A stretch of DNA of 64,000 nt from an uncultured Clostridia bacterium (GTDB lineage: Bacteria; Bacillota; Clostridia; TANB77; CAG-508), in the NCBI GenBank assembly GCA_934140005.1, contig CAKPBB010000001.1, forward strand, positions 159,147 through 223,146, read 5' to 3'. This document shows positions 11,248-54,881 of the stretch, piece after piece. How positions within the stretch are numbered: position 1 is the first letter of the stretch; each line of letters begins with the position of its first letter. A model generated the notes under the pieces. The model had not been told where the DNA came from and made no database searches. It saw only the letters and a program-made list of their open reading frames with translations. The translations under genes were made by a program, and so were the position numbers.

Positions 11248-11257
11248 GGTATTATTT

Positions 11258-11333: not shown

Positions 11334-11339
11334 ATGTAA

Positions 11340-11460: not shown

Positions 11461-11548
11461 TTTTACAGATTTTATAAAAAAGTAAAACCTGTAAAAATCT
11501 ACAAATACAGTGTTATATGCACATTGGCGCTAATAGATATATCCCATT

Positions 11549-11595
11549 ACCATCTGATTAAGAGTCAACTGCTCTACCAACTGAGCTAATGGTGC
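11549..11595 (-). pseudogene. 3'-truncated tRNA-Lys-like fragment (acceptor 5' strand, D-arm and anticodon arm only)
   Basis: Reverse complement GCACCAT-TA-GCTC-AGTTGGTA-GAGC-A-GTTGA-CTCTTAA-TCAGA then unrelated sequence. No T-arm and no 3' acceptor strand. Confidence 0.6.
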
Positions 11596-11781
11596 ATATA
11601 TTAACAAGAATTATTATAGTATATCAAACTACCTTTGTCAATACTTTTATAATTTTTTTGGTAAAAGGGATTTTTGGAATGAAAGATATATACCAAAATT
11701 ATAACAATAAGTAGTTGTATTTAAATTTCTTTAATGATAAAATTCCGTATATAAAATGAATAAATATAAGAGAGGAATTTT

Positions 11782-12486: not shown

Positions 12487-12539
12487 AATTTTGTTGAATA
12501 AAAATATAATTATAGGTATAATATTTTGGGTGGTAATTA

Positions 12540-23578: not shown

Positions 23579-23677
23579 GTACAAAGTGAAAAAATTGTTT
23601 TAGTATTATATATATTAATAAAAAGGTAATAGTATGCCAAGTTGGAAACAAAAGAAAATAAGGAAAGGGATTTGTGT

Positions 23678-35600: not shown

Positions 35601-37312
35601 TAGAACAAGAAGATAGATCAGATGCAAGAGATGATGAAATAGATAGACTAAATGCAATATCATATTCAGAAATCATGACAAATGAAAAGGCAGAGACATT
35701 AAAAGGTATAAGTATTCCATCAGCAACAGAAGAAGATAGAGCAGATAAGGCAGCAAGAGAAGAAAAATTAGTAAATGAAACAAAGATGAATGCAGAGACA
35801 GTAACATTCTATGTAAAACCAGAAAAATTAGATGATTATGCAGAAAATGTAACATATGCAACATGTACAAATATACCATATAATAAGATTTCAGGAAAAA
35901 CATATAATGTAAAGAATATAGACTTCGGTATAGAATATAGACCAGAATCAGAGATTTCATTGAATAAGGAAATAAAAGAAATAAAATTAGTAACATCAGA
36001 TCAAAATACATTGATAAAGATAGCATTTAAAGATGTAGAAGATGTAAATGGTAATAAAGTATTAAATGAAGTAACAGGCAGAGTAGAAAGAGAAGTAGAC
36101 ACAGCAAATAGTATAGGACTAAATAATTTACAATTCATATGTAATAATAATACATTGCAAGGATTTGCATATATAAATGTTGATGACATAATATTACAAG
36201 GTTGTAGAATAAATGTAGACTATGAATTCACAGTAGAAAATAGAAGTGAAGTAGATAGAATAAGTACAAATCTAGATAGTTTAAGATATAAACAAAATTC
36301 AACAAATGCAATAGCAACAAATAATGGATTAAGGACAAAATATGTATCAGAGAATGATTATTTAGGCTCAGAAACAGCAATGAAATATCAATATGAGTTA
36401 ACATATGAGAAAGATACAAATTATGCAACAGATGATAAGTATAGAATCATAGAAAAGACAATGACAACAGGAGAAGATAATTATTATGGTAAGTATTTAG
36501 GAAGTACATATTTCTTAAGTACAATAACAGCAAAAGATACAATAGTGGACTTAAAGGTAGATAAGATATTAGACTATATAGATACAGACTTAACATTCCC
36601 ATCAGAGAAGAATAAAGATGTAGATAATGCATGGACAACAACGACAGCAGAGGCATTAAAAACAGGAGATGGCTATAATGGAGGATTGTTAAAGAGAAGC
36701 TTATTTAGTAATATAGAAACATCAACATCAAGCTCAGCAAATAGAATACAACAATTGATAGACTTAAAAGGAGTATCATTCGAAACAGGCTTAACAAGTA
36801 ACTTGGCAATATCAATGGATGATAGAATAAGTGATGATCAAAGAGAAGATGAAGTAGTAAATGGAAGATTGTCAAAATTCTTAGAACCAAAAACAACAGC
36901 GACAACAGAAAGTGAGTATAGTGGATATGTAGTATTAACAACAGAGAAGTTAATATCATCAGAAACAGATACAGATAATCTAAGATTTGAGAATATGGCA
37001 GAAGTAGTTCAATTTACAACAACAGCAGGCAGAAGAACAAACTTTAGTACAACAATAGGAAATGCAAATATTAAGTCAACAAGAGGAGAATATATAGAGA
37101 GCTTGAATGAACCAGATACATCAGCAACAGAGGTAATAACATTAACTCCACCAACGGGTATAGATAGAAGAATACAGAATATGGTACTAGATGCAGTAGA
37201 TAAGAATATAGATAAAGTAATAATAGTAATCATATCATTAGTATGCTTAACAGGAGCAATATTGTTAGTACCGGTAGCAGTAAGAAAATATAAAAATAGA
37301 CCTATAAAATAG
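29675..37312 (+). CDS. Giant secreted adhesin 2 (2545 aa). N-terminal thioester-domain-like region, Cys-rich insert, multiple CnaB/DUF11-like domains, TPPTG + TM + basic tail.
   Basis: Signal peptide. Cys115 in DYFCMQHGY and Gln277 in DPLQIALWV fit the TED [YF]CΦ(E/Q) and ΦQxΦΦW motifs. KVWLDQNKDGYMTNDE... is SdrD-B-like. C-terminus ...LTPPTGIDRR...IIVIISLVCLTGAILLVPVAVRKYKNRPIK. Starts 3 nt after gene 1 (AGGAGGTG RBS). Confidence 0.8.
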   Translation: MKMMKKIKQINKKILIIIIVLISIVLIGFIGFKSSSAYATNNGQEELENTNEQLNKIAEEELEDMLSNSEFATEGKTIEEIKEEINSNLGDIPWSYEQKKLINEEVLASNPDYFCMQHGYSYWYDNLDLSQYGVGNIGISGRIKNILTYKFKGSVHLFPQTFSGSANDGWGGYTSSGKVEPKTGTIAKAGSDTWDHHGFAGPILPVKVAFSSFYYYKVDFGWISQSGGKTIVRRSSNSPIYNQLRVYDDGGIAFAMATYKQTAEERKRTGHADDPLQIALWVQMNQLGRVNSDSHRTNKLADVMAKYDDYYKKASDIENNGANIGVTVDDHVGTTLVLNNTTYKVGPFTMSHYLRAKDVEVSDPVRGYKNLQEAFDASSTQRVFGNLLSNVKGSIIKATAYFDNGTTINFPVPDPDAEFYIYVPRDKVGDANELVEIGFEYQYVHANGTGTYYDGLRYMTFWKEANTKDGCKTYFNTCLKLLKWPYTSSKPGPQHCQHFRTQQITIPTPWGPITFTILVPAGSHNDAIFLCKHGFGWTSNDKCKAFNWKLFFSVPDTLQDAMEASAKLRGKQYNTHNYDNLKMEVHVPLITDIKVDKIVVKVHHNDSEGRYTYGAGISGIGSIFSGIFSSSIGDNTSRFERSMEEKYDDTVKVERGDTVIFRIDIINNSPKYDTRIKIKDTLPNDIEGTFKLPADLNGGWYITIPKQDKVTYYVEVIPSAQTGKYTNTVEITTRNTGTLEHMQYVEWYGHTKGNIVNTNDNRVTDLREKDSDTYEIKQYKVNIDKHIVKVEHTTNGEVTYDALADNDENLKSSQLAIARVKMGRAVNLLDPVYVEYGDRVTYQIDVYNTTPLDYAVTNRSGEPYWKPDKVYVDLLDELPNHSDIKINITNDGNVLSQSGLPIVLPVGNILSISNLCVPAGSVTTITVSFVVEDVQAGKLCPNVVEMVGEVYNINHWKNLQKYDRPVYNTEKSEAYNPLTNRQWLVNADYYKINDYKLDIDKYISSYDGLMMKDNNSKNFTHNETSSINEDESTERMDRTDEEKSVSPFQAEKTETLTYSIRLENLSEKESGLKPATKVRTTDITETLQEGLAFQSVTAKIYKPDGTARLDDVPVTVTPKGNNVYLLSIPNKVGEEYTTLNPGEYIIYYVKVKITESNMYLYNLENKAEITTLTNINDVNRNRIVTEQNKYPVKKSSEFVKLKDLVIAGKVWLDQNKDGYMTNDENKFENIIVHLYNAKNDQIVETVRTDATGLYTFERVYKATTKVDGSNVEGTIEEEANKKNYKQGTELNSYYVEFEYDGLMYKSTEIYSNDTHIDENWLPVTDSGNYINDSNAFEFKDVREEFNRHFETIGYNKGYYVGEDKNSNTGTKKIEYNKENHTSTFLEDRSRVMTSRSFVLTKAENISSGTANNTKSLWLYPLSTANYQLAETEYLKYINLGLEEREDVDISITKDVYQVKTTINGEEVIYDYNQEEVNDEYKNDYVIKKPYNLEFYESDFKYRYEQYKNEKVREYKGTESELNVEVTFKIAITNEKITDDEPYRQNKDIPIEVTIDELADYYDENFIKYTGEENNTLTVKTKNGDYLKDKQIKIAEAWYKSSETSNESMPLTLSNTSNYNRERDFTTNGYNTLYIRGFDNVKLKEGETGYVFVKYVLDKDSTRTLKIEDSKSDNMGIEGISEINAYSTWYGDVSEEYKQENPAYEIGYPAGLVDKDSNPGNIGDDNGLSTSETLARNKSADDTDLYEDDTYKTGIKMNVKTITNVPPPTTGINKNVPSIETYRILTGFMWDDSRSEAIGTDGNVQYSGNGIYNETDTKRTEAKSNSNVLELLNRDSGYKSIVERFNNPTSEQNDFVVKGAKAQLIEIVKIPSNENNPSEEGTKYYEEVIDANWATIQETRTNENGKYVLSGFIPGYYTVRFTYGDQTTNEMLTFNGQDYKSTKYTTGVDNYTYKPADGETELNVEKIKKYDEIMTALEQEDRSDARDDEIDRLNAISYSEIMTNEKAETLKGISIPSATEEDRADKAAREEKLVNETKMNAETVTFYVKPEKLDDYAENVTYATCTNIPYNKISGKTYNVKNIDFGIEYRPESEISLNKEIKEIKLVTSDQNTLIKIAFKDVEDVNGNKVLNEVTGRVEREVDTANSIGLNNLQFICNNNTLQGFAYINVDDIILQGCRINVDYEFTVENRSEVDRISTNLDSLRYKQNSTNAIATNNGLRTKYVSENDYLGSETAMKYQYELTYEKDTNYATDDKYRIIEKTMTTGEDNYYGKYLGSTYFLSTITAKDTIVDLKVDKILDYIDTDLTFPSEKNKDVDNAWTTTTAEALKTGDGYNGGLLKRSLFSNIETSTSSSANRIQQLIDLKGVSFETGLTSNLAISMDDRISDDQREDEVVNGRLSKFLEPKTTATTESEYSGYVVLTTEKLISSETDTDNLRFENMAEVVQFTTTAGRRTNFSTTIGNANIKSTRGEYIESLNEPDTSATEVITLTPPTGIDRRIQNMVLDAVDKNIDKVIIVIISLVCLTGAILLVPVAVRKYKNRPIK

Positions 37313-37866: not shown

Positions 37867-40800
37867 ATGCATAGCAAAATGTTTAAAAGAGTTTTAGCCG
37901 GAATTTTAGTATTCACTTTAACTTTTGCTAATCCTGCATTAGTAACTAAATCATTTGCAACTAGCATTTTTGATATGGTTAATAATCAGTCTGGAACTGG
38001 TAATAAAAATATCGAATTTAATGCTGGATTTGATGCTGAAAATGCAGAGAGCTTTTCAGCTATTTCTGATGTTAATAATGAGGATCTAGCAATTAACTTA
38101 AGACTTAATGTTAAAGATAAAGGCTATCTAAAAAACGGAAAAGTGCAAATCTTAGAAGGAACAGAAGGAGCAGGATTAAATTTTGAACTTAGAAAAGAAG
38201 ATTCAAAGTCTGAAAATTCAAGTAATGAGAATACAGATATTGCAAATTCAAATATAGAAAATAGCAATACTGAAAATGCAATAATTGAAGAAAGCAATAA
38301 TCAAAATACAGTTTCAGAGCCAATTGAAAATTCTTTTGAAACAGTTAATACACAAACAGAAGAAATGTTAACTGAAAATATGGGTAAGTTTCAAAATTTA
38401 GATGCAAATACATCAAAAGAGGCCGAAGCTAAAATTGATCAAAATTCTTCAAACAATAATGTTTCAAATGAAAATGTTACAGAGAACACAACAGTTTCAA
38501 ATGAAACAACTTCTACAAAAAATGAAAACACAGAAAAGAATGAAAAAGTAGAAGTTAAATCTGAAATGGTTGAAAGTATTGAAGATAACATAATATCTTT
38601 AAAACAAATTAATGCTGGTTCAGATGTTTTAATTTCTGTACCAATTGAGTACAAGAATGAAGAATATGTTAATTTGAAAAAACTATCAGATACAAGTAAA
38701 ATTATTTTTACAGGTATTTATGTAGATGGTAAAGGAAATGAGAATGAAGTTTCAAAAGAAGTAGATCTTACATTATTTTGGAAAGATGAAAGAAATGTTA
38801 AAATTACTACTGATGTTACAAAATACATTCCATATAAAACAAGTAACGGAAATGGAATTATTTTACAAACACTAGTAACTTTAGATAATACTACATCAAG
38901 AAAATCATTACCAGTAAAGAAAACAGAGTTAAGTGTTTCAGTACCTACAATAAATAATGTAAAACCAAATAATGTAACAATTACGGCAAACTCAACGGCA
39001 GGAACAAATGGTAAATCAAATGAAAATGTTGTATTTACATCAGACAATTGGTCATATAATCAAGAAGATAATACATTAAATATACATATTCAAAATGAAA
39101 GCCAAGTTGTAAAAATAGATAATACAGCAAATGATGTATTGAAAGATGCAGAGAAAGTCGTTAAGGAAGAAGAAAGATATTACAGTGTATCAGGAAAAGA
39201 TGAATATTCTATTACTTATTCATTTGAAAATATTGAAGCAATAGAAAACTTAAAATTAAATTCTAATGTATCAGGAAAGATGGAAACATTTACAGGAGAG
39301 AGTTCAAATGCACAAATTGTAGAAGTACAAGAAAATTATGAATTTAATTTAGATGGGCAAAAAGGTGAAATTGTTTCACTAGAAACTAATAATGAAACAA
39401 AAAATGTTTCAAAAGCATATACTTACTTAAATTATAATAATAAAGAAAATTATGAAATTAAATTTAATTCAAAAAATATAGTAAATATTTCTTATAAAGA
39501 TATAGTAGAAGGTATTAAATTAGAAGATAAAGATATTTACTATGTTGCAAAAGATGGCAATAAATATAGTACAACTGATGTTAAATATAAAACAATTTCT
39601 TTCCAAAAAGAAAATATTAATAACATTTTAGGTGAGGAAGGAAGAATTAGAATAACAGACGCATCTGGAAATGAAATTTCTACTATAAATAAAGAAACAG
39701 CAACAGATGAAAATGGAAATATCGTAATCGACTTAACAGATAAAAACTTGAGTAAATTATCAATTCAAACAAGTAAGCCAATTACTGATGGTAACTTAAT
39801 TATAAATGTAGAAAGAGCAATGAAAAAATCAGAATTTTCAAAAGAACAATATAAAAACTTTTCAACATTGATTTTTGAAAATGTAATTAAAGCTAAATAT
39901 AGCTATGTAGAAGCTGAAACAGAAATTGCTACTAATACAATTCAAACTAATTTAAGAGATACAATTACAAAAGCAAATTTAGTTATAGATAGAGACAGTT
40001 TATCAACAATTGCAATGAACAATGATGTTGAAATGAGAGTTGAATTAAACAATAATTTAGAAGAATCAGATGTTTATGGAAATTCAATTTTTGAAATAGA
40101 AATGCCAGCATATATCCAAAGAATGGATATAACAAATACAAATATTGTATATGGTGAAGGACTAGAAATTCAAAATGTAGAATTATTTGAAAGAGACGGA
40201 AGAGTATATATAAGAATTACATTGAATGGACAGCAAGAATATTTAAATTCTGGTGTTTTAACAAATGGTTGCAATATTGTAATAAATGCAAATATTCAAG
40301 TTAACCTATTTACACCAGCAATGGAACAACAAATAAATTTAACTTATACAAATAGCGAAGCAACAAATTATGAAAATAATCAAGAATATGGAAGTACAGC
40401 AAAAGCTATTTCATATTCAGCACCAACAGGATTACTTACAGTAAATACTACAAGCAATTATAATGAAGTTGGTAGTATGATTACTTCTGTAAGACAAGGT
40501 AAAAAAGAAGATACTATAGAAATTTATGCACCAGCTAAAACAGCAAAAATGGAAGTTATTGTGATGAATAACAACAAAAATACAATTTCTGATTTGACAA
40601 TTTTGGGAAGAATACCATTTAAAGGTGTAAAAGACATAGAAACTGGTGAAGATTTAGGAACAACATTAGATACAAAAATGGTAAGTAAAATGGTAGCTGA
40701 TTCTAATAATAGAGGAAACTTTAAAATATATTATTCAGAAAATCCAGAAGCTACAAAAGATTTAGAAAATACTGAAAATGCTTGGAAGCAAGATGTAGAA

Positions 40801-43326
40801 GATTTATCAAATATTAAATCATACTTAATTGTTCCAGAAACAACAGATTATATAATGAATGAAGCAGAAACATTAAGATTTACTTATGAATATGAAATAC
40901 CAGGAAATCTAGAACATAATACAGATATTTATGGTACATTCTTAGCTTATTATACAAATAATACTGAAATTGCTACTGTAAAAGAAACATCAACAGCAGA
41001 TAAAGTAGGATTAACAACAGGAGAAGGACCACAAGTAGACATATCTTTAAAATCAGATATTGAAAAGATAAAAGAGTTTGAAGAATTAAAGCTAACAACT
41101 TCAGTAACAAATACAGGAAAATCAGCAGCAAAAGATATAGTTGTTAAATTACCAATTCCAAATTATACAGAGTATGTTTCAGCATTAGCTAATAAAGAAA
41201 ATGTAACAACAAGTTTAGAAGATAATATGTCAGTATTTAAAATAGATAGTTTAGCTGTAAATGAAACGGTAAATCTAGAAACAACTATTAAAGTACAGGA
41301 TACTCCAGAAGAACAAAAAAATATAGAAGCTGTTGCTACTATAACAGCAAAAGATTTACAAAAAGAATTATCAACAAATACAGTATCTGTTGAATTAAAA
41401 CAAGCAGAAATGGCTATTGAAGTAATGACAGAAGAAGATAATACAGATGGAGGTAAAGTTATTTACAAAGAAGGAGAAGAGTATTTCTTTAATGCATATG
41501 TAGATAATTTAAAATCAGAAGAATTAACAAATGCAATTGTAAAACTTAAATTACCAGAAGAATTTAGTTTTGTAGAAGCATATATGCTTGGATATGAAGA
41601 AGATGGACTTACATCTAAGAAGATAGAAAATGCTACATATAATGAAAGCACAAGAGAAGTTATTTGGAAAACAGACAGTATAAGAGCTGATGGAGGAGAA
41701 CAATTTAACTTGACAATAAAAGTTAATGACTTACCATCAGGAACAACACAAAAAGATGTAACAATGAAATTTGAAACATCAGCAGATAATACAGAAACTT
41801 ATACTTCAAACGAAGTATTGAGTACAATTGCAAAACCAAGCTTAACAGTTTCTCAAAAGACTTTAACAACAAATACATATGTAAAAGAAGGAGAAACAAT
41901 TGAGTATGTGTTTGAAGTAAAAAATGAAGGTATTGTTGCAGCAGAAAAACTTACATTAAATGATAAAATACCAGATGGTTTAATTGTAAAGAAAATTGAC
42001 TATATTGCAAATGGAGTAGAATCTTCAAAAACAGTTTCTGAAAAAGATTCTGTAGAAATAAATACAGTTATTATGCCAGGTGAAGAATTAATTGTAAATG
42101 TAAAGGCACTTGCAGTTAGCCTAAATGGTATGCAAGAAAAAACTGTAACAAATGCAGCAACTGTATCAGCTAAAAATGTTGAAACAGTCAAAACAAATAC
42201 AATTACACACATAGTTGAAGCAACAGATAAATCTGAATTATATGATACAGCTGGAGAAACAACAAATACAGCTACATCTCAAATTCATTCATCAAATAGC
42301 AATCTTGTTAAAACTTATAAAATTACAGGTATTGCTTGGCTAGATGAAAATGGAAATGGTAAGAGAGATGAAGAAGAACAAAAAATGAGTGGTATAACAG
42401 CTCGTTTAGTAAATTCAGATACAGGAACTATTACAAAAACAACAGTTACAGATAGTAGAGGAGAATATACATTCTCAGGTATTGAAAATGGAAATTATTT
42501 AGTACTTTTTGATTATGACACAGTAAAATATACAGTAACAACATATAGACAGGCTGGAGTGGAAGCAAATGTTAATTCAGATGCTATTACTACAAAAATA
42601 GAACAAGATGGAAAACAAAGAAATGGTGCTGTAACAGATGTAATTACAATTCAAGATTTAAGTGTTTCAAACATAGATATAGGTTTTGTTTTAGCAGATA
42701 CATTTGATTTGAAACTAGACAAATCAGTAACAAAAATAACAGCACAAAACAAAGTTGGAACAAATAAAGCAGAATTTAATAATTCAAAACTTGCAAAAAT
42801 GGATGTAGCAGGAAAATATATATCTAGTACAGTAATCTATGTTGAATATAACATTTCAGTTTCAAATACTGGTGATGTAGCAGGATATGCTAAAAAGATA
42901 GTAGATTATATACCAGAAGGAATGACATTTAATTCAAGCTTGAATTCAGATTGGTATACAGGTACAGATGGTAACTTATATACATCAAGTTTAGCAGAAG
43001 TGGAATTAAAACCAGGTGAAACAAGAAACTTAAAATTAGTATTAACAAAACAAATGACTGAAGAAAATACAGGAATTGTAAACAACAATGCAGAAATATA
43101 TGAAGACTTCAATATATATGGAATTTCAGATAAGAATTCAACTCCAGGAAATAAAGTTCAAAATGAAAATGATATGAGCTCAGCAGATGCAATGTTAACA
43201 ATTAAAACAGGTGAAAGCCTAATTTATGTATCAGTAATAATAACAAGTGCAATTTTAGGAGCGATAGTAATATTTATAGCATATAACAAAATTGTAATTT
43301 CAAAAAGAAAGAGAGGTGGTGTTTAA
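37867..43326 (+). CDS. Giant secreted cell-surface protein 3 (1819 aa), paralogue of protein 1
   Basis: Signal peptide MHSKMFKRVLAGILVFTLTFANPALV. Blocks collinear with protein 1, e.g. LTNGCNIVINANIQV vs LTNGTNIVINANITV. GIAWLDENGNGKRDEEEQ is SdrD-B-like. C-terminus TIKTGE + TM + SKRKRGGV. Confidence 0.8.
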   Translation: MHSKMFKRVLAGILVFTLTFANPALVTKSFATSIFDMVNNQSGTGNKNIEFNAGFDAENAESFSAISDVNNEDLAINLRLNVKDKGYLKNGKVQILEGTEGAGLNFELRKEDSKSENSSNENTDIANSNIENSNTENAIIEESNNQNTVSEPIENSFETVNTQTEEMLTENMGKFQNLDANTSKEAEAKIDQNSSNNNVSNENVTENTTVSNETTSTKNENTEKNEKVEVKSEMVESIEDNIISLKQINAGSDVLISVPIEYKNEEYVNLKKLSDTSKIIFTGIYVDGKGNENEVSKEVDLTLFWKDERNVKITTDVTKYIPYKTSNGNGIILQTLVTLDNTTSRKSLPVKKTELSVSVPTINNVKPNNVTITANSTAGTNGKSNENVVFTSDNWSYNQEDNTLNIHIQNESQVVKIDNTANDVLKDAEKVVKEEERYYSVSGKDEYSITYSFENIEAIENLKLNSNVSGKMETFTGESSNAQIVEVQENYEFNLDGQKGEIVSLETNNETKNVSKAYTYLNYNNKENYEIKFNSKNIVNISYKDIVEGIKLEDKDIYYVAKDGNKYSTTDVKYKTISFQKENINNILGEEGRIRITDASGNEISTINKETATDENGNIVIDLTDKNLSKLSIQTSKPITDGNLIINVERAMKKSEFSKEQYKNFSTLIFENVIKAKYSYVEAETEIATNTIQTNLRDTITKANLVIDRDSLSTIAMNNDVEMRVELNNNLEESDVYGNSIFEIEMPAYIQRMDITNTNIVYGEGLEIQNVELFERDGRVYIRITLNGQQEYLNSGVLTNGCNIVINANIQVNLFTPAMEQQINLTYTNSEATNYENNQEYGSTAKAISYSAPTGLLTVNTTSNYNEVGSMITSVRQGKKEDTIEIYAPAKTAKMEVIVMNNNKNTISDLTILGRIPFKGVKDIETGEDLGTTLDTKMVSKMVADSNNRGNFKIYYSENPEATKDLENTENAWKQDVEDLSNIKSYLIVPETTDYIMNEAETLRFTYEYEIPGNLEHNTDIYGTFLAYYTNNTEIATVKETSTADKVGLTTGEGPQVDISLKSDIEKIKEFEELKLTTSVTNTGKSAAKDIVVKLPIPNYTEYVSALANKENVTTSLEDNMSVFKIDSLAVNETVNLETTIKVQDTPEEQKNIEAVATITAKDLQKELSTNTVSVELKQAEMAIEVMTEEDNTDGGKVIYKEGEEYFFNAYVDNLKSEELTNAIVKLKLPEEFSFVEAYMLGYEEDGLTSKKIENATYNESTREVIWKTDSIRADGGEQFNLTIKVNDLPSGTTQKDVTMKFETSADNTETYTSNEVLSTIAKPSLTVSQKTLTTNTYVKEGETIEYVFEVKNEGIVAAEKLTLNDKIPDGLIVKKIDYIANGVESSKTVSEKDSVEINTVIMPGEELIVNVKALAVSLNGMQEKTVTNAATVSAKNVETVKTNTITHIVEATDKSELYDTAGETTNTATSQIHSSNSNLVKTYKITGIAWLDENGNGKRDEEEQKMSGITARLVNSDTGTITKTTVTDSRGEYTFSGIENGNYLVLFDYDTVKYTVTTYRQAGVEANVNSDAITTKIEQDGKQRNGAVTDVITIQDLSVSNIDIGFVLADTFDLKLDKSVTKITAQNKVGTNKAEFNNSKLAKMDVAGKYISSTVIYVEYNISVSNTGDVAGYAKKIVDYIPEGMTFNSSLNSDWYTGTDGNLYTSSLAEVELKPGETRNLKLVLTKQMTEENTGIVNNNAEIYEDFNIYGISDKNSTPGNKVQNENDMSSADAMLTIKTGESLIYVSVIITSAILGAIVIFIAYNKIVISKRKRGGV

Positions 43327-43327
43327 T

Positions 43328-46300
43328 ATGAAGAACTTAAAAAATAAAACAATATTATATGTAGCATTAGTATTTTTAATAGTATTAGGCACCATATTTG
43401 GTTTAGCAACTTATGTAAGTGCAGAAATAGATGTTTCACAATCACAATTAGAATCCAAGGGGCAAGGTAGTCCTGCCCCAGGATATGTAACTTTGAAAGA
43501 TTTAAGAAGTAGATATGATATTTTGTGTTCTAAACATGGTGAACATTTACCAAGTTATAATAATACATTACTTATAACAGAAAGAGGAATGTTATCAGAA
43601 GGATATTTAAAACAAACTGATATTGGCAAGAGAGATTTTTACCAGGTAAGTGCAAGTGAAACAGAAAATTCACCATTTAAAAAAGGAACATATGAAAATC
43701 AAACTTATGGTTATTATAAGAAAAAGGCAACTTATGTAGCAAAACCAATGGAAGCATATGTATTATCAGAAATGGTAAGAGAAAAAATGGCAACAGCGAC
43801 AGATACAAATGTACAAATTGCTTGGTGGAACACAGAAGCTGGTATGAAAGGTGTTTTAACAGCAGCACCAGAAGCTTTAACTTTAGAAGCTAGAGACTTT
43901 GAAGCCTATATAGAAAAAATTGCTGTTTCAACGAACCCAAGTACATTTACATTACAAGATTATGAATTTCAAGTAAATGGTGTAACTTATGCAGGTCAAA
44001 TTGAAGCACCAGTATTAAAATATGAACCATCTTACAATAAAGATGCAAATCAAGATGGAAAAGAAGATAGATATGACAATGTTACAGTTTCATGGACAGG
44101 GGAAAAATACAGAATAGGTCCATTCTCTGTAAATTATGTAGAAAGCAAATCAAAACATGGTGACAGAGATGAAGTTATGTTTGCTGGTATCACAAATGCA
44201 AAAATCTATACAGACTTAGGTGAAGTACCAGAAGATAAATGGTCATTTGTATGGCTAGAAGGTCAAAGAGATGCAAATGATACACAAAAATATCCACATG
44301 CAAACGAAGTATTTTATATTGAAATGGATTTTATAGAAAATGCTAAATATTTCAAAAATTTACATTTTGATTTCAAATACATGAATGCTGGTGGAAAATA
44401 TGATGAATTAGAAGGAAAATATTTTAAGGCAAAATGGCAAGCAAAAAGCAAAGCACTATGGTGTTTATTAGGAAATCCATTCACATCTTGTACACATGGA
44501 TATATAACACCTCACATCATGGGTTGGGCTTACTGGGTAGAATTAACAAATTTAAAAGAATTTGATTCACAACTTTTAGCTTATGGTATTAAAGGTGCTA
44601 GATGGTATAAGACAGCAGAATTAGATTTCAATGGTGAAACAGAAATCGTAGAAAATCATAAAGCAACAATTCAAATAAAGAAAGTTGTAATTGATCAAGA
44701 AGGTAATGAATTAACATCATTAGATGATTCTATATTTACATTTAAACTTTACATAAATAATGTACTTTATGATACACTAAGATTAAAAGCAAATGAAACA
44801 GTTACCAAAACAATTAAATGGGGAGCTAACGAATCAAATCCATCATATAGAATTGAAGAAGTAAATGTTCCAAGCGGATACAATGTAGTAAATATTGAGA
44901 ACTCATCTGGTGTCTTATCAGATGGTTGGTTCCAAAATATTAGCGTAAAAGCAATAAACAGAGTAGATAGACATTCAGGATATATAAACATTCAAAAGAA
45001 AGTATTAGAAGTTGCTGAAAATGATGAAACATATAAATTTAATATTTATATAGATAATGTTCTTAATAGACAAGTTTCAATAACTATTCCAGCAGGACAA
45101 AAAGAGAATGGTATAACAGTAGGACCTTTTGAATGGAATGGTAATGATGCTCCAGTATATAGAGTTGAAGAAACTGAAATTCCAGAAAATGTTACTCAAT
45201 TCAATATGATAAATGAAAAAGGAAAATTGGTTGAAGGAACAGCTGGAACACCAGTAATTGTTACAGCAATAAATGATAACTCAGAAACAAAACAACATAA
45301 AGGTTATATAGAAATCACTAAAAAGATAACAGAAGTTTCTTTAGAAGATGAAACATATAAATTTGATGTATATATAAATGGAGAAAAATATCAAACAGTA
45401 GAAGTATTAGTTTCAGCAGGACAAACAACATCAAATCCAGTAGTAATTGGACCAATAACATGGAAAGGAACAAGAGCACCAAGTTATGAAGTAAGAGAAA
45501 TTGAGATTCCAGAAAATGTTAAACAGTTTAATATGGTTAATGCATCAGGAACTATTTTAGATGATGCAACTGGACAAAAAGTAATTGTAACAGCAATCAA
45601 CGATACTAGTACAGAGACGAAAGAACATAAAGGAAAATTAGTAATTACTAAAAAAGTTGATGGAAATGCATCAGTAAACAAAAAATTCAAATTTAAAATA
45701 ACAATAGGAAATGATGTATACTATGCAGAAATATCAAAAGATATTAGCTGGACACAAACAGTTAAATGGAAAGATGGAGAAAGTGCTCCAACATATAAAG
45801 TAGAAGAAATTGAAATCCCAGAAGGATATGAACAAGTAAGCATTACAAATGCTGAAGGAACTATAACTGAAGATCAAGATGTATATGTAGAAGCAATAAA
45901 CAAAGGTGATGATACAGAATATTCTGGAACAATCCGTGTAACTAAGAAAGTTGAAAATTCAACAGATACAAATACAAAATTCAAATTTAAAATAACAATT
46001 GGTGATACAACTTATACAAAGGAATTAGCAAATGGCGAAAGTTGGACAGAAAATGTTAAATGGATTGGTAAAGATAATGCACCAACATATAAAGTAGAAG
46101 AAGTTGAAGTTCCAAATGGATATACTTTAATAGGAATTGAGAATAGTACAGGAACATTACAAGAAAATAAAACAGTCGTTGTAAAAGCAACAAACAGAAA
46201 CAATGATGACAGAAACAGACAGGCACAAATTACAGTACGTAAAGAAGTTCAAATAGACGATAAAGTTAGAAATGATGTTGTAGAAGGAAGCTTCGAATTT

Positions 46301-49300
46301 GAAGTTACAATAGCAGGAACATTCGAAATGAATGGTGAAAGCATTGTAAATGGAAGCAAAACAATTAAACAAAGTATAAGAGCAGGAGAAAGTTTCTCAA
46401 CACCAACAATTACATGGAAAGGTGATAATGCTCCAACTTATAAAGTAACAGAAACAAAAATGCCAGATGGATGGAAACTTGTTGATATAACAAATGCATC
46501 AGGAGTTCTAGAGGATGGTGTAAATATTGAAGCTGTTTGTACAAACGAGTTCAAAATCACAGTAGAATATGAACTTACAATGCAAATGGGTGGTATTGTA
46601 TGGCATGATAAAGCATTAAATCCAGATGCTAAAAACACACCAGATTCAGTTCCAAACGGTAAATATGATGCAGGTTCAGAAGAAGGAATTGAAAAAGCAC
46701 AAGTAACAATTAAAAGATATTTGTGTGATGACAATGGAAATGTAATTTCTAGTACAGGAAATGCAAAAGCATGGGATGCAGATGGAAATGAAATTTCTTG
46801 GCCAGTATATACAGATGTTGATGGAACTTGGAATGTAGCAAAAGTAGAAATTACAGTTACAAAAGCAGGTGAATCAGGCAGAGTAAGATATGGTGTAGAA
46901 TTTGGATATGATGGTCAAACATATGAACCAACACAATTTTTAGTAACAGGAAATGGAAATGCAAGTGCATATAAAAATGCATCAAGAATAGATAGAGGAA
47001 ACTTCTTCTATGATTCAATGGCAATAGACAATGAAGCAGAGAGAGCACAATTTAATAGTAAATTTACAAATATTACAGGTGATGAAGCAATAACATCAGA
47101 TGGTAAAACAACAGGATATAGTACAAATGCTTTAGGAGCTAGAACAGCAACATTAAATTATGTTTCAACAGATTCATTAAACACAATGGGTACAACTAAA
47201 AAGGAATCTACATTAATTACAACAAAAGATGACCATAGTATTATAAATGATTTCTTAATGAAAGCTGAAACAACAACTGGTGGCTTAACATTCCCATTTG
47301 ATACAGCAATTCATTTAGAGAGTATTGATAAAAAGATCAATGAATTAGGAGCAACACATATTTATCATTATTCAGCAACTTATCCTTATTTACTAAGTAT
47401 AAACTTAGGTTTAGTTGAAAGAGAAGAAGCTGAGCTTGCAGCTACTAAAGATGTATATTCAGCAGCAGTTGTAATTGATCAAAAAATGTTAACATATAAA
47501 TATAATCAAGCAGTTGATTTTGAAAATGTAAAATATCAAGATTATTTGAATTTACAAGTAGAAATAACAGATGCTGATATAGAATATGAATTAGACTTAT
47601 ATAAAACAGATTATTATTATAGAGCAAAAATCTATGAAGAAAATGCAGAAGTTGCAGGAGCATTAAAGAAATTCTATAAATCTTTAGGATTTACAGCAGA
47701 TAATGCATTGGATACAGAAATGAATCTTGATGTATATGTAACTTATAAAGTTAGTGTATATAATGATTCACCAACATATTATGCATCAGTAAATGAACTT
47801 GTAGATTACTATGATGAAGATTATGAACTAGTAAATGTAGAAAAGAAGAGATATCTACAAGAGGCAAATGGTGTTGCTGTAAACCAAGTAACAACAATTG
47901 CAGAAACTCCATATTATAAAGTTGCAAAACAACAAGTAAATGGAAATAATGTAAGTTGGGAAACAACAAACGATAATCAAAACCCAGTAGTTTGGGAAAA
48001 TGCAGGAACTGTACATGGTTCAGATGGTATAACATATAATAAGATTAAAACAAGCTCAATAAGGGATGAAATATTAGCAACAGGTGAAAGAATTGACTTA
48101 TATTTAACATTTAGAGTAAAGACAGACGAAACATCAGCAGATGGAGTTCTAAATTGTGTAAGATTAGGAAGAAAAGCAAATATTGCAGAAATTTCAAATT
48201 ACTCAACTTATAACTCAAATAATAGAGCAGATGTAGCTGGTAAAGTAGATAAAGATTCAGCACCAAATAATATTAACATTACAGAATTTAACGAAAAATC
48301 TTGGTATGAAGATGATACTGATTCAGCACCAGCAATTACATTAACACTATATGATACATCAAGAGAAGTAAATGGTATTGCTTGGGAAGATAAAGAAGAT
48401 GTTCAAATTGAAAATGGATATGGTCAAACAGTTGGAAATGGAGTTTACGATCCAGGTGAAGAATTAATTGGTAACTTGACTACAGAATTGTGGGAAAAGG
48501 TTAGAGTAAAGAAAATTGACGATAATGGAAATGAAGTTCATGATGCAAATGGTGATATAGTATATACAGAATATGATTTCTTATGGCCAGAAGATTATGA
48601 AATTCAATCTGGAAAAACCTTAAAGGAATTAACAGGATTTGACTCAACAATTAAAACTGGCGTAGATGGTGCAAATAAAGGCAGATATAATTTTACAGGA
48701 GTTCCAACGGGTAACTATGTTGTAAGATTTGTATATGGAGATAGTGATGAAACTTCAGATCCAGCAAATTATGATGGTGATGGAATCCCAGCAGTATATA
48801 ATGGTCAAGACTTCAAGACTACAGCTTATGAAGTTGGATTTAGCAATATATCAGATACAAATTCAGATGGATATGTAGATAATGAATGGCATGATTTAGA
48901 AAATGAAGAACTTGCAAATACAAGAGTTTCAGATGCTAGAGATAGTGAAATAAGAAGACTTGAAATAACAGCAAAATCTAGAATTCTAACAAATTCAAAT
49001 ACAACAATTCTAAATTCTGCAAATAGCAGAAATGCAGATCATACAAAACTATATGAAGAATATTACATGACAGCTGATACAGCAAAAATCAACTTAAATA
49101 TTGAAAATATGATAAGTTTGAAGAAACAAACTGTAAATGTAACAAATCCATCAACTGGTATAATGGAAGAAATTGCGGCAGGTGAAGAAAAGCAAGTTGG
49201 AGGAATTACATTAAACTATACAAAAGGTAAAGTAAACCTTGCAAATGGTGGAAATACATCACTAGATAGATTAGACTTTACTTATGTGGTAAACAATATT

Positions 49301-50539
49301 GATATTGGCTTGGAAGAAAGAGCAAGCACAGAGATTAAGTTAGATAAAGAAATTGAAAATATTACTTTAACAAATAATACAGGATCTGTTATATTAAAAG
49401 CTGATTATGATATTACTTATACACCAAAATATAATGCAAGAACAGGCAGAACAGATGTTAAAACAGATGTTAAACTAAATGAATCTACTTCAATGGGAAC
49501 TGATTATTTACAAGCATTAAATAAAAATGAAGAAGCTGGATTACAAAACTTTAGATATATTTTCTATGACAATTCAATAGCACAATCATTAACTTTAAAT
49601 GTAACTTATAGATTTACAGTATTGAATTTAGGAGAAACAGATAGAATTGGATTACTTGCAAATGAAAGATTTGATGTGCCAAGTGAAATACTTGCAGAAG
49701 TTGCAAAACTTTCAGAATCAGATTATTCTTACAATACAAGAACAAAGACATTTACAAAAACAGCAAATGCAGATGGCAATGTATATGCAGATACTTATGG
49801 CAAGTATTTAGGAAGCATTTACTATGAAGGTTCTTATGCACAAGCTAACTTAGATAATATAGTAACTACAAAGATTGATACTTTAATAGACTATGTTGAT
49901 AATAACGCAGTATTTAAAGCAGAAGAAAATACAGCATTAAATAATAGCTGGAGAGTTGTAACAATTGAAGAATTATCAAATGAAGATATAATAGATAAAA
50001 ATATTATTCAAGATTATGATGGAGTTCAAAACATTGTAGACTCAAAAGGTGTTATGTATGAGACATCAGAAAGAAATAATATAATTCTTAGTGTAGAAAA
50101 TAATGATGCAAACGCAACTGAAATGTCAAATAAAGACTTTACTATCAGATTAGTTCCTTATGGTGCTACTTTGAATAATAGTGATTTGACTTATGGATAT
50201 ACAACATATATGAATATGAATATGACAAGATCTATAGATGCAGAAATAAATGACTCAGACGCATCATTTGATAATATCGCAGAAATTGTTAAATTAGAAA
50301 ATACAGCAGGTAGAAGAGATGTAACAACAATTGCAGGTAATGCAAATCCAAAACTTGGTGAGTTTGCAGTATCTTTAACAGAAAGAGACTCAAGTGCAAC
50401 AGAGTTAATTACATTTACACCACCTACTGGTATGAATGCAAGAACAATCTTAACACTTCAAATCGCATTAGCAACTGTAGCTGGATTAGCAATAGTTGCA
50501 ATAGGAATTGTAGTTATTAAGAAAAAAATTCTAAAATAA
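43328..50539 (+). CDS. Giant secreted adhesin 4 (~2403 aa), paralogue of protein 2. TED-like N-terminus, six tandem CnaB-like repeats, TPPTG + TM + basic tail.
   Basis: Likely start ATG 43328 after GAGGTGG. Cys71 in DILCSKHGEHL and Gln167 in TNVQIAWWN. Repeats G(Y/K)I(E/V)ITKK...(W/T)KG..AP.Y.VEE.EIPE...VTAIND. C-terminus ...FTPPTGMNAR...LAIVAIGIVVIKKKILK collinear with protein 2. Confidence 0.8.
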   Translation: MKNLKNKTILYVALVFLIVLGTIFGLATYVSAEIDVSQSQLESKGQGSPAPGYVTLKDLRSRYDILCSKHGEHLPSYNNTLLITERGMLSEGYLKQTDIGKRDFYQVSASETENSPFKKGTYENQTYGYYKKKATYVAKPMEAYVLSEMVREKMATATDTNVQIAWWNTEAGMKGVLTAAPEALTLEARDFEAYIEKIAVSTNPSTFTLQDYEFQVNGVTYAGQIEAPVLKYEPSYNKDANQDGKEDRYDNVTVSWTGEKYRIGPFSVNYVESKSKHGDRDEVMFAGITNAKIYTDLGEVPEDKWSFVWLEGQRDANDTQKYPHANEVFYIEMDFIENAKYFKNLHFDFKYMNAGGKYDELEGKYFKAKWQAKSKALWCLLGNPFTSCTHGYITPHIMGWAYWVELTNLKEFDSQLLAYGIKGARWYKTAELDFNGETEIVENHKATIQIKKVVIDQEGNELTSLDDSIFTFKLYINNVLYDTLRLKANETVTKTIKWGANESNPSYRIEEVNVPSGYNVVNIENSSGVLSDGWFQNISVKAINRVDRHSGYINIQKKVLEVAENDETYKFNIYIDNVLNRQVSITIPAGQKENGITVGPFEWNGNDAPVYRVEETEIPENVTQFNMINEKGKLVEGTAGTPVIVTAINDNSETKQHKGYIEITKKITEVSLEDETYKFDVYINGEKYQTVEVLVSAGQTTSNPVVIGPITWKGTRAPSYEVREIEIPENVKQFNMVNASGTILDDATGQKVIVTAINDTSTETKEHKGKLVITKKVDGNASVNKKFKFKITIGNDVYYAEISKDISWTQTVKWKDGESAPTYKVEEIEIPEGYEQVSITNAEGTITEDQDVYVEAINKGDDTEYSGTIRVTKKVENSTDTNTKFKFKITIGDTTYTKELANGESWTENVKWIGKDNAPTYKVEEVEVPNGYTLIGIENSTGTLQENKTVVVKATNRNNDDRNRQAQITVRKEVQIDDKVRNDVVEGSFEFEVTIAGTFEMNGESIVNGSKTIKQSIRAGESFSTPTITWKGDNAPTYKVTETKMPDGWKLVDITNASGVLEDGVNIEAVCTNEFKITVEYELTMQMGGIVWHDKALNPDAKNTPDSVPNGKYDAGSEEGIEKAQVTIKRYLCDDNGNVISSTGNAKAWDADGNEISWPVYTDVDGTWNVAKVEITVTKAGESGRVRYGVEFGYDGQTYEPTQFLVTGNGNASAYKNASRIDRGNFFYDSMAIDNEAERAQFNSKFTNITGDEAITSDGKTTGYSTNALGARTATLNYVSTDSLNTMGTTKKESTLITTKDDHSIINDFLMKAETTTGGLTFPFDTAIHLESIDKKINELGATHIYHYSATYPYLLSINLGLVEREEAELAATKDVYSAAVVIDQKMLTYKYNQAVDFENVKYQDYLNLQVEITDADIEYELDLYKTDYYYRAKIYEENAEVAGALKKFYKSLGFTADNALDTEMNLDVYVTYKVSVYNDSPTYYASVNELVDYYDEDYELVNVEKKRYLQEANGVAVNQVTTIAETPYYKVAKQQVNGNNVSWETTNDNQNPVVWENAGTVHGSDGITYNKIKTSSIRDEILATGERIDLYLTFRVKTDETSADGVLNCVRLGRKANIAEISNYSTYNSNNRADVAGKVDKDSAPNNINITEFNEKSWYEDDTDSAPAITLTLYDTSREVNGIAWEDKEDVQIENGYGQTVGNGVYDPGEELIGNLTTELWEKVRVKKIDDNGNEVHDANGDIVYTEYDFLWPEDYEIQSGKTLKELTGFDSTIKTGVDGANKGRYNFTGVPTGNYVVRFVYGDSDETSDPANYDGDGIPAVYNGQDFKTTAYEVGFSNISDTNSDGYVDNEWHDLENEELANTRVSDARDSEIRRLEITAKSRILTNSNTTILNSANSRNADHTKLYEEYYMTADTAKINLNIENMISLKKQTVNVTNPSTGIMEEIAAGEEKQVGGITLNYTKGKVNLANGGNTSLDRLDFTYVVNNIDIGLEERASTEIKLDKEIENITLTNNTGSVILKADYDITYTPKYNARTGRTDVKTDVKLNESTSMGTDYLQALNKNEEAGLQNFRYIFYDNSIAQSLTLNVTYRFTVLNLGETDRIGLLANERFDVPSEILAEVAKLSESDYSYNTRTKTFTKTANADGNVYADTYGKYLGSIYYEGSYAQANLDNIVTTKIDTLIDYVDNNAVFKAEENTALNNSWRVVTIEELSNEDIIDKNIIQDYDGVQNIVDSKGVMYETSERNNIILSVENNDANATEMSNKDFTIRLVPYGATLNNSDLTYGYTTYMNMNMTRSIDAEINDSDASFDNIAEIVKLENTAGRRDVTTIAGNANPKLGEFAVSLTERDSSATELITFTPPTGMNARTILTLQIALATVAGLAIVAIGIVVIKKKILK

Positions 50540-50582
50540 TATAATACAAATTGAAATGTTTGTATGAAATAAAAAGACAAAA

Positions 50583-50610
50583 AACTTCACATTATGTGGA
50601 GTTTTTTGTT
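50583..50610 (+). terminator. Rho-independent terminator after giant gene 4
   Basis: CTTCACA-TTA-TGTGGAG hairpin (one G·U) followed by TTTTTTGTTTT. Confidence 0.5.
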
Positions 50611-50767
50611 TTAATCTATTGTCTTTTTAGAAAAATTATAATAAAATAAACTAAAATTATCACAAAATGTAGAAAACTTTTTTATTTTCATATTAAATAT
50701 GACAAATTTCAAAACAAATTAGATGTTTAATTAGATTAGTAAATAAAAAAGTAAGAGGTGGTTAAGG

Positions 50768-53185: not shown

Positions 53186-53343
53186 AAAGTTTAATGGATT
53201 AGAAAATATATTGTTTTTATACATTGTATAGAAATGATATATTTTTTTACTTATTTTTAGTTTTAATTGTAAAATAGTTGTTTTTCTAAAGCAAAATGTG
53301 ATATATTATAAAAGGATTATTAACAAATTATTTGGAGGTATCA

Positions 53344-54858: not shown

Positions 54859-54881
54859 CCAAAGAAAAAGAGGGAGTATAG

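What the first reader, a model, noticed from the sequence alone, without database searches (positions are those of the whole stretch)
43520..43830. Second TED-like signature in giant adhesin 4, with shorter Cys-Gln spacing
Cys71 lies in ...RYDILCSKHGEHLPS and Gln167 in ...TDTNVQIAWWNTE, a VQIAWW match to the ΦQxAΦW motif. The spacing is ~96 aa, against ~160 aa in paralogue 2, which suggests a trimmed TED variant or a different fold. As in protein 2, a second C-x-HG motif (FTSCTHGYITPH) occurs further downstream. Two divergent TED-like tips in one locus could mean two target specificities.
Basis: partly seen in the sequence, partly recalled or inferred. Interest (0 to 1): 0.6.

Follow-up and report, generated by a model that had tools for sequence, protein, structure and literature searches.

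The report
Divergent thioester-like adhesin tip domain

Summary
Cys67 (Cys71 from the upstream GTG) and Gln163 in VQIAWW lie 96 residues apart, against 162 in paralogue 2.

They define an unannotated family: 175 representatives at ≤50% identity, all from metagenomes or uncultured gut Clostridia MAGs. The domain sits at the N-terminus of sortase-signal giants.

Cys67, Gln163/Ala165/Trp167 and a third residue, Gln415 (SQxL), are essentially invariant. No His or Asp is invariant.

In known thioester domains (TEDs) the TQxxΦW glutamine does not form the bond. It lies on helix α2 beside the thioester. The bonding Gln lies on a later β-strand. So the 96-residue "spacing" is not a Cys–Gln bond spacing. 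It varies from 81 to 337 across the family.

An AlphaFold model (pLDDT 89.7) has the class II TED order: Cys on a strand, three helices, an inserted β-sandwich, then a long hairpin with Gln415 at its tip. The best of 350,542 PDB chains is BaTIE, a class II TED, but only at E=0.04.

Pfam, NCBIfam, HMMER and hhalign found no link to TEDs. The second "C-x-HG" motif lies in a variable insert that has no Cys in 25 of 43 members.

Verdict: probably a divergent class II-like TED (about 0.55). Membership is unproven.

The parts
43328..50539 (+). g4: gene for a 2,403-aa giant surface protein, starting at ATG 43328 (the GTG at 43316 lies inside the ribosome-binding site)
   Evidence: ORF list and translation. 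The identical 2,403-aa product is called on 14 public contigs. g4 starts 1 nt after the g3 stop codon.
43328..43423 (+). Signal peptide (residues 1-32, ...ATYVSA|EIDV)
   Evidence: Read directly from the sequence. The hydrophobic N-terminus is conserved in homologues.
43424..44662 (+). TED-like tip domain (residues 33-445). Family profile: 175 representatives at E<=1e-3.
   Evidence: AlphaFold model with pLDDT 89.7 and pTM 0.84.
43514..43540 (+). Cys motif YDILCSKHG. Cys67 (43526-43528) is the proposed thioester Cys and is predicted to lie on a β-strand.
   Evidence: Cys present in 72/73 representatives and invariant in alignment A3. Strand at model residues 33-35.
43745..43774 (+). Helix α1 motif PMEAYVLSEM (family consensus TPxEA[YW][IV]L[SA]EM)
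   Evidence: Pro140 72/77, Glu142 69/77, Ala143 70/77. Helix at model residues 108-120.
43811..43828 (+). VQIAWW (Gln163), the counterpart of the TED TQxA[IV]W / TQxxΦW helix α2 motif. By analogy it is not the bond-forming Gln.
   Evidence: Gln 76/77, Ala 74, Trp167 72. Helix at model residues 129-135. Role of the motif in TEDs from PMC4450167 and PMC6194298.
43949..44464 (+). Inserted β-sandwich (residues ~208-379). This part is shared with g2 and also occurs on its own inside other giant proteins.
   Evidence: Model strands 176-347. hhalign against g2. Sandwich-only hits.
44462..44521 (+). Variable Cys/His-rich insert CLLGNPFTSCTHGYITPHIM.
   Evidence: Not conserved: 25 of 43 members have no Cys here. 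P0003 and P0005 lack it. Lower pLDDT, 69-86.
44513..44626 (+). Long β-hairpin (residues 396-433) with the invariant Gln415 (44570-44572, DSQLL) at its tip. Gln415 is the proposed thioester Gln, the counterpart of strands P/Q in class II TEDs.
   Evidence: Gln415 present in 37/39 representatives and invariant in A3. One of the two exceptions (P0055) was inspected and is an alignment shift. Model strands 364-381 and 385-401.
44651..46582 (+). Six tandem CnaB-like stalk repeats (residues 442-1085), each with a conserved Lys, a Y-x-V-x-E Glu, and an A-x-N Asn. This is the isopeptide triad pattern.
   Evidence: Self-alignment of the repeats. Weak Pfam SpaA hit elsewhere in the protein.
50417..50536 (+). 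C-terminal sorting signal: TPPTG, a hydrophobic helix, then KKKILK
   Evidence: SATEL[IV]TFTPPTG is conserved in the family giants.
50574..50612 (+). Terminator-like hairpin (18 pairs followed by a T run) closing the g3-g4 unit
37867..43326 (+). g3: the giant protein upstream of g4, with no TED-like tip and translationally coupled to g4. The g3-like/g4-like pair is conserved in related MAGs.
29675..37312 (+). g2: paralogous giant with a homologous, very diverged tip. Cys115 lies in FCMQH (30017-30019) and LQIALW is at 30500-30517.

Best explanation
Residues 33-445 of g4 form the distal tip of a secreted, probably sortase-anchored fibrillar adhesin with a stalk of CnaB-like repeats. The tip is most likely a very divergent class II-like thioester domain.

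**Inferred mechanism.** After export and folding, the thiol of Cys67 (on a β-strand of the N-terminal lobe) attacks the side-chain amide of Gln415. Gln415 sits at the tip of a long C-terminal β-hairpin that returns to that lobe after an inserted β-sandwich. Ammonia is released and an internal thioester forms. Gln163 and Trp167 of the VQIAWW helix pack beside the bond, like the TQxxΦW motif of known TEDs. A nucleophile on the target, typically a Lys amine on a host or microbial surface molecule, then attacks the thioester. The result is a covalent isopeptide link between the bacterium and its target.

**Shown here.** The family exists. Cys67, Gln163 and Gln415 are essentially invariant. The order of predicted secondary-structure elements matches class II TEDs. 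The protein has the adhesin architecture. g2 carries a homologous tip.

**Inferred only.** That Cys67 and Gln415 are in contact, that a thioester forms, what the target is, and that the domain shares ancestry with TEDs.
For: 1. **A large conserved family.** It has 175 representatives, and the domain is N-terminal in proteins of 2,000-3,900 aa.
2. **A Cys/Gln/Gln triad.** Cys67, Gln163 and Gln415 are the polar/reactive residues among the nine invariant columns of a 24-sequence alignment with 26% mean identity. Across 82 representatives the counts are 72/73, 76/77 and 37/39. Two of the four exceptions were inspected and are alignment shifts.
3. **A motif match to the TED helix.** Q-x-A-x-W matches the conserved positions of TQxA[IV]W (PMC4450167). 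g2's FCMQH resembles the FC[ILV][DEQN][PH] Cys motif of bona fide class II TEDs, such as FCLQH in L023.
4. **A matching predicted topology.** The AlphaFold model (pLDDT 89.7, pTM 0.84) gives the order: Cys strand, three helices, β-sandwich, extended hairpin carrying the Gln. This is the class II TED topology described in PMC6194298.
5. **The top structural hit is a TED.** The best Foldseek hit among 350,542 PDB chains is 6fwv, BaTIE, a class II TED protein.
6. **Adhesin architecture.** The protein has a signal peptide, six CnaB-like repeats with a Lys/Glu/Asn triad and a conserved TPPTG sorting signal.
7. **No catalytic partner for the Cys.** No His or Asp is invariant, which argues against a Cys-His enzyme.
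8. **Known TEDs are also hard to link by sequence.** TIEpLS20 does not find the PDB TEDs by phmmer. Its profile reaches SaTIE-TED only at E=0.38.
Against: - No sequence method links the family to TEDs. Pfam TED and TED_2 and the NCBIfam TQXA model match none of 24 members.
- The family profiles find no TED in the PDB.
- hhalign against an 11-sequence class II TED alignment gives probability 0.3%. The TED HMM finds no family member below E=0.09.
- The Foldseek hit to BaTIE is not significant (E 0.04, probability 0.21, TM 0.15). Unrelated spike proteins score similar E-values.
- The Cys motif of g4 (L-C-S-K) departs from [YFL]CΦζ.
- I could not read the model's coordinates, so Cys67-Gln415 proximity is unverified.
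Confidence: 0.55

Rival explanations
1. The tip is a new adhesive fold that is not a thioester domain. The invariant Cys would be a free thiol, for example for disulfide exchange with cysteine-rich host mucins or for binding a metal or ligand. The two glutamines would be structural or ligand-binding residues. The resemblance to TEDs would be convergent or superficial.
For: - All sequence-based tests for a link to TEDs were negative.
- The only structural hit is non-significant.
- The domain is about 410 aa, far larger than known TEDs.
- The Cys motif is LC[SC]x[HKR]G, not [YFL]CΦζ.
Against: - The same three residue types, in the same order and the same secondary-structure contexts as in class II TEDs, are the polar/reactive invariant positions.
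- The Q-x-A-x-W helix motif matches the TED motif.
- The unusual topology is shared: a lobe completed by a hairpin that returns after an inserted sandwich.
- BaTIE is the top hit out of 350,542 chains.
Confidence: 0.3
2. One reading: a trimmed TED in which Cys67 forms the thioester with Gln163 of the VQIAWW motif, 96 residues away.
For: - Gln163 is as conserved as Gln415.
- In TEDs the equivalent Gln lies directly beside the thioester (PMC6194298), so it is probably close to Cys67.
Against: - In every characterised TED the helix-motif Gln is not the bond partner. Mutating it in Cpa does not abolish the thioester (PMC4450167).
- The Cys-Gln163 distance varies from 81 to 337 residues through insertions, so nothing is 'trimmed'.
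- This reading leaves the invariant Gln415 on the returning hairpin unexplained.
Confidence: 0.05
3. The tip is a cysteine-dependent enzyme (a papain-like, NlpC/P60-like or transglutaminase-like peptidase or cross-linker) with Cys67 as the nucleophile.
For: - There is a single invariant Cys.
- 'C-x-x-H-G' in g4 and g2 looks superficially like a Cys/His pair.
Against: - His70 is H in 28, K in 23 and R in 14 representatives.
- No His, Asp or Asn is invariant anywhere in the domain.
- No peptidase family was hit in Pfam or NCBIfam, and no peptidase fold was hit in the PDB.
Confidence: 0.05

Closest known systems
Class II bacterial thioester domains (BaTIE 6FWV, SaTIE-TED 6FX6, EfmTIE86-TED 6FWY; Pfam TED_2 PF20610)
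   Same: - N-terminal tip of a signal-peptide plus sorting-signal adhesin with a CnaB-type stalk.
- Cys on a β-strand.
- Q-x-x-Φ-W on the middle helix of three.
- A β-sandwich inserted after helix α3.
- A Gln on an extended hairpin that returns to the N-terminal lobe.
- 6fwv is the best Foldseek hit.
   Different: - No detectable sequence similarity.
- The domain is ~410 aa, against ~250-275 aa.
- The sandwich region is ~170 aa, against ~75 aa.
- There are extra β-elements and variable insertions between the Cys strand and the helices.
- The Cys-Gln distance is 314-525 residues, against 171-204.
- The Cys motif is LC[SC]x[HKR]G.
- Some members carry a Cys/His-rich insert.
- The sorting motif is TPPTG rather than LPxTG.
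TIEpLS20 (pLS20 gene 34), a class II TED adhesin needed for conjugation in liquid (PMC8092201)
   Same: A TED-tip plus stalk-repeat surface protein. It has one essential Cys and a conserved Gln about 190 residues downstream.
   Different: - It is plasmid-borne, 767 aa, and recognised by Pfam TED_2.
- g4 is chromosomal, sits next to spoIIE in conserved synteny, is three times longer, and is not recognised by any model.
Class I TEDs (SfbI, FbaB, Cpa, CpTIE 5A0G)
   Same: The Cys / TQxxΦW / Gln motif order, and covalent binding to a Lys on the target (shown for SfbI and fibrinogen).
   Different: Class I TEDs have no β-sandwich insertion and carry an extra helix α0. They are much smaller. No sequence or fold match was found here.
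[not shown]
   Same: The same kind of discovery: adhesin tips missed by Pfam TED and recognised as TED-like from predicted structure.

Membership tests
Bacterial thioester domain (TED; Pfam PF08341 / PF20610, NCBIfam TQXA) | Match to the curated sequence models | tested here: not met
   No TED, TED_2 or TQXA hit for g4, g2 or any of the 24 family members, even at E<=1. No precomputed Pfam hit is on record for g4.
Bacterial thioester domain (TED) | Universally conserved bond-forming Cys on a β-strand, in a [YFL]CΦζ motif | tested here: inconclusive
   The Cys is invariant (72/73; the exception is an alignment shift) and is predicted on a strand. However, g4's motif is L-C-S-K, and the family consensus is [ILV][LF]C[SC]x[HKR]G. 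g2 (F-C-M-Q) and remote members (YCIQ, YCVE, FCME) fit the motif.
Bacterial thioester domain (TED) | TQxxΦW (earlier TQxA[IV]W) motif on the central helix α2 | tested here: met
   VQIAWW: Gln 76/77, Ala 74/77, Trp 72/77. It lies on the second of three helices in the model. Thr is replaced by Val or Ile.
Bacterial thioester domain (TED) | Universally conserved bond-forming Gln on a β-strand (strand Q) C-terminal to the helices, about 25-30 residues before the end of the domain | tested here: met
   Gln415 (SQxL) is invariant in A3 and present in 37/39 representatives; one of the two exceptions (P0055) was inspected and is a one-residue alignment shift. It sits at the tip of the hairpin formed by model strands 364-381 and 385-401, about 30 residues before the first stalk repeat. 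Only presence and position were tested, not bond formation.
Bacterial thioester domain (TED), class II | Fold: a β-barrel plus a three-helix bundle, with a β-sandwich inserted between α3 and strands P/Q (slipknot) | tested here: inconclusive
   [not shown]
Bacterial thioester domain (TED) | Cys and Gln side chains within bonding distance in a buried pocket | not testable with these tools
   The tools do not expose the model's coordinates.
Bacterial thioester domain (TED) | A -17 Da mass deficit and reactivity with amine nucleophiles | not testable with these tools
   This needs an experiment.
TIE-type fibrillar adhesin architecture | Signal peptide, N-terminal tip domain, tandem isopeptide-type stalk repeats, and a C-terminal sorting signal | tested here: met
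   Signal peptide at residues 1-32. Six CnaB-like repeats with a Lys/Glu/Asn pattern. TPPTG plus a transmembrane helix plus KKK, conserved in the family. Isopeptide bonds are inferred from the motif only.
Cysteine peptidase / transglutaminase-like enzymes | Invariant catalytic His (and Asp/Asn) partnering the Cys | tested here: not met
   No His, Asp or Asn is invariant. Position 70 is H, K or R.

The most novel reading that the evidence does not exclude
The tip is not a diverged TED. It would be a new fold from uncultured gut Clostridia that has arrived independently at a reactive Cys flanked by two invariant glutamines. It would use a different covalent chemistry, for example a thioester to the helix Gln or thiol-disulfide capture of mucins. 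Each locus would carry two paralogous versions (g2 and g4) aimed at different targets.
Probability: 0.2. Interest if true: 0.7.

Novelty: new variant of a known kind. Interest (0 to 1): 0.4.

Why it matters
Thioester domains are the only known way for Gram-positive bacteria to bond covalently to their targets. The catalogue of them depends on sequence models. This family has about 175 representatives at 50% identity. It is the tip of some of the largest proteins of widespread, uncultured gut Clostridia from humans, mice, sheep and rabbits. Pfam and NCBIfam do not detect it.

If it is a thioester domain, three things follow:
- It extends the fold to a much larger, more elaborate variant.
- It adds a Cys / Gln-helix / Gln signature (LC[SC]x[HKR]G … VQxAWW … SQxL) that could be used to find more examples.
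- It suggests that commensal Clostridia use covalent adhesion in the gut, with two specificities per locus.

If it is not a thioester domain, it is a new adhesive fold with an unexplained invariant cysteine.

In either case, the correction that the TQxA-type Gln is not the bond partner matters for any motif-based screen of this kind.

Tried and rejected
**Searches that found no link to TEDs**
- Pfam and NCBIfam scans of g4, g2 and 24 family members: no TED or any other tip-domain family.
- phmmer and hmmsearch of g4 and the family profiles against PDB sequences: nothing relevant.
- Pfam on five remote members with canonical-looking YC[IV][EQ] motifs: no TED, so they do not bridge the families.
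- hhalign of A3 against a 4-sequence alignment of pLS20-type TEDs: no match.
- hhalign of A3 against an 11-sequence alignment of the same TED type, built from plasmids: probability 0.3%.
- The HMM built from the 11-sequence alignment, searched against all family N-termini: no hit below E=0.09.

**Searches limited by the tools**
- Word-indexed homologue search with the g4 tip: only 5 hits. With the g2 tip: none. With TIEpLS20-TED: only 3.
- First AlphaFold run with 5 sequences: pLDDT 43, unusable for the upper lobe.
- Metagenome scan for TED_2 relatives: nothing.

**Readings rejected**
- Cysteine protease or transglutaminase: no invariant His or Asp.
- The 96-residue spacing as a 'trimmed' TED.
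- The second C-x-HG as a functional motif.
Full report
**1. The observation**

The window is low-GC chromosomal DNA from a member of the Clostridia. It carries mreBCD, a PBP2-type transpeptidase, minC, spoIIE and a dockerin/LRR protein.

Four giant genes lie on the + strand: g1 23642-29671, g2 29675-37312, g3 37867-43326 and g4 43328-50539. The finding lies in g4.

The residues are as described:
- RYDILCSKHGEHLPS, with the Cys codon at 43526-43528.
- TDTNVQIAWWNTE, with the Gln codon at 43814-43816.
- A spacing of 96 residues.

That GTG lies inside the ribosome-binding site of the ATG at 43328. Public gene calls for the identical protein use the ATG and give 2,403 aa, found on 14 contigs. The residues are therefore Cys67 and Gln163.

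In g2, Cys115 (DYFCMQHGY) and Gln277 (LQIALW) are 162 residues apart. The second motif, FTSCTHGYITPH (Cys388), is present.

The ΦQxAΦW-type pattern is expected 0.0075 times per composition-shuffled g4.

**2. The family**

No Pfam or NCBIfam model matches the first ~450 residues of g4 or g2, even at E≤10. The word-indexed search found only five relatives.

A full HMMER search of 1.84 billion representatives, using their profile, found 175 proteins at E≤1e-3 and 58 at E≤1e-30. Most are 2,000-3,900 aa with the domain at the N-terminus. Ten were looked up and none carries a name in any source.

Genome hits are all uncultured gut Clostridia MAGs. Sources are human (Hadza), mouse, sheep and rabbit; named taxa include Ca. 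Scatovivens and Lachnospiraceae. The gene order g3-like, g4-like, spoIIE, WG-repeat protein is conserved.

Family giants end in SATEL[IV]TFTPPTG, a hydrophobic helix and KKK.

After the tip, g4 has six CnaB-like repeats. Each has a conserved Lys, a Y-x-V-x-E Glu and an A-x-N Asn. This is the thioester/isopeptide fibrillar-adhesin layout.

**3. Conservation**

The counts below come from 82 representatives that are ≤50% identical to each other.

| Position | Conservation |
|---|---|
| Cys67 | 72/73 |
| Gln163 | 76/77 |
| Ala165 | 74/77 |
| Trp166 | 71/77 |
| Trp167 | 72/77 |
| Motif TPxEA[YW][IV]L[SA]EM (140-149) | strongly conserved |
| Gln415 (SQxL) | 37/39 |

Two of the apparent exceptions (P0028 for Cys67, P0055 for Gln415) were inspected; both are one-residue alignment shifts.

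A 24-sequence alignment with 26% mean identity has nine invariant columns: L59, C67, A143, Q163, A165, P323, F329, G363 and Q415. No His, Asp or Asn is invariant. The His of 'C-x-x-HG' is H in 28, K in 23 and R in 14 representatives.

Cys388 lies in a variable Cys/His-rich insert. Of 43 members that cover it, 25 have no Cys there. P0003 and P0005 lack it.

**4. What the literature says about the motif**

In TEDs the bond-forming residues are a Cys in [YFL]CΦζ on strand C and a Gln in a weak ΦQζΦΦ motif on strand Q.

The TQxxΦW motif (earlier TQxA[IV]W) lies on helix α2 beside the bond. It hydrogen-bonds the backbone of the Cys, and it is not needed for thioester formation (PMC4450167; PMC6194298).

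In this family that distance ranges from 81 to 337 residues (median 121) because of insertions. The 96 versus 162 difference between g4 and g2 carries no structural meaning.

The candidate bond partner is Gln415. It lies 348 residues after the Cys (family range 314-525). Solved class II TEDs have 171-204.

**5. Structure**

With five sequences AlphaFold failed (pLDDT 43). With the 24-sequence alignment it gave pLDDT 89.7 and pTM 0.84.

The element order, in model numbering (g4 residue minus 32), is:
- short strands, with Cys35 on strand 33-35, followed by further strands;
- helices 108-120 (PMEAYVLSEM), 129-135 (VQIAWW) and 151-166;
- a β-sandwich at 176-347;
- the variable insert;
- a long hairpin, 364-381 and 385-401, with Gln383 (= Gln415) at its tip.

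This matches the class II TED description: a β-barrel plus a three-helix bundle, an Ig-like sandwich inserted after α3, and an extended P/Q hairpin that loops back into the N-terminal lobe and supplies the Gln.

In Foldseek against 350,542 PDB chains, the top hit was 6fwv, the B. anthracis TIE protein. The scores were E 0.04, probability 0.21 and TM 0.15 over 310 columns. Spike proteins follow at similar E-values but with about ten-fold lower probability and lower TM. This is suggestive but not significant.

**6. Tests for homology with TEDs**

All sequence tests were negative:
- Pfam and NCBIfam on 24 members.
- Pfam on five remote members with YCIQ, YCVE or FCME motifs.
- Family profiles against PDB sequences.
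- hhalign against a 4-sequence and an 11-sequence alignment of pLS20-type class II TEDs built from plasmids.
- The TED HMM against all family N-termini.

One caveat applies. Bona fide TEDs are themselves barely connected by sequence. TIEpLS20-TED finds no PDB TED by phmmer, and its profile reaches SaTIE-TED only at E 0.38.

At the motif level, g2's FCMQH resembles the FC[ILV][DEQN][PH] of those TEDs, for example FCLQH.

**7. The paralogue**

g2's tip is homologous to the g4 family:
- hhalign probability 92%, E 7e-7, covering the Gln helix and the sandwich.
- Three collinear HMM segments that include the Cys motif.

g1 and g3 are not related to this domain.

The genes form two tightly coupled pairs: g1-g2 with a 3-nt gap and g3-g4 with a 1-nt gap. 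A 555-nt gap with promoter-like sites lies between the pairs, and a strong terminator-like hairpin follows g4.

**8. Verdict**

The tip is best explained as a divergent, enlarged class II-like thioester domain with Cys67-Gln415 as the proposed bond (confidence about 0.55). Membership of the TED family is not demonstrated.

The 'shorter spacing / trimmed TED' idea and the 'second C-x-HG motif' are not supported.

The main rival is a new adhesive fold with a free reactive Cys (about 0.3).

This is a new variant of a known kind, of moderate interest.

Noticed in passing
window 23642-50539: The four giants form two translationally coupled pairs: g1-g2 with a 3-nt gap and g3-g4 with a 1-nt gap. Each pair is a Cys-poor giant without the tip domain, followed by a giant with the TED-like tip. 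The g3-like/g4-like/spoIIE/WG-repeat order is conserved in 13 MAG loci. This suggests the two proteins of a pair work together.
   Followed up: partly
window 50417-50431 (g4); C-termini of g1, g2, g3: The sorting signals are atypical. g2 and g4 have TPPTG, and the family conserves SATEL[IV]TFTPPTG. g3 ends with ...LTIKTGES plus a transmembrane helix. g1 ends with ...ISVATGRT plus a transmembrane helix. None is a classical LPxTG. No sortase gene turned up among the 18 non-giant ORFs scanned; the remaining ORFs at both ends of the window (1228-7054, 61524-63407) were not scanned.
   Followed up: partly
window 44462-44521: A Cys/His-rich insert (C379, C388, H390, H396) lies between the sandwich and the returning hairpin. 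A minority of the family has longer versions with 4-6 Cys and several His. It could be a small metal-binding or disulfide knuckle.
   Followed up: partly
P0005, P0010, P0011, P0014-P0016 and others (family members): Insertions of 140-240 residues lie between helix α1 and the VQxAWW helix. Other members (P0027, P0031, P0032) have almost no linker between the Cys strand and α1. The upper lobe tolerates large inserted modules.
   Followed up: no
P0112 (~890-1300), P0128 (~895-1282), P0086, P0093: In some giant proteins the domain, or just its β-sandwich, is internal rather than N-terminal. In P0112 and P0128 the internal copies have canonical-looking YCIQ / YCVE Cys motifs and SQ[KR]LL Gln motifs.
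   Followed up: partly
window 9556-14459: A phage-type integrase (9556-11247) sits next to capsule-type genes: a CpsB/CapC phosphatase and a Wzz/tyrosine-kinase fusion.
   Followed up: no
window 57609-61310: A 1,233-aa protein with leucine-rich repeats and a C-terminal type I dockerin domain. This implies a cohesin-bearing scaffold somewhere in this organism.
   Followed up: no
window 53332-56138: A WG-repeat protein (508 aa) and a 418-aa protein with no family match follow spoIIE. The WG-repeat gene stays next to spoIIE in the related MAG loci.
   Followed up: no
window 29675-29684: Public gene calls give g2 as 2,542 aa, starting at the second ATG (29684) rather than the GTG at 29675. On that numbering g2's Cys and Gln are Cys112 and Gln274.
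   Followed up: no
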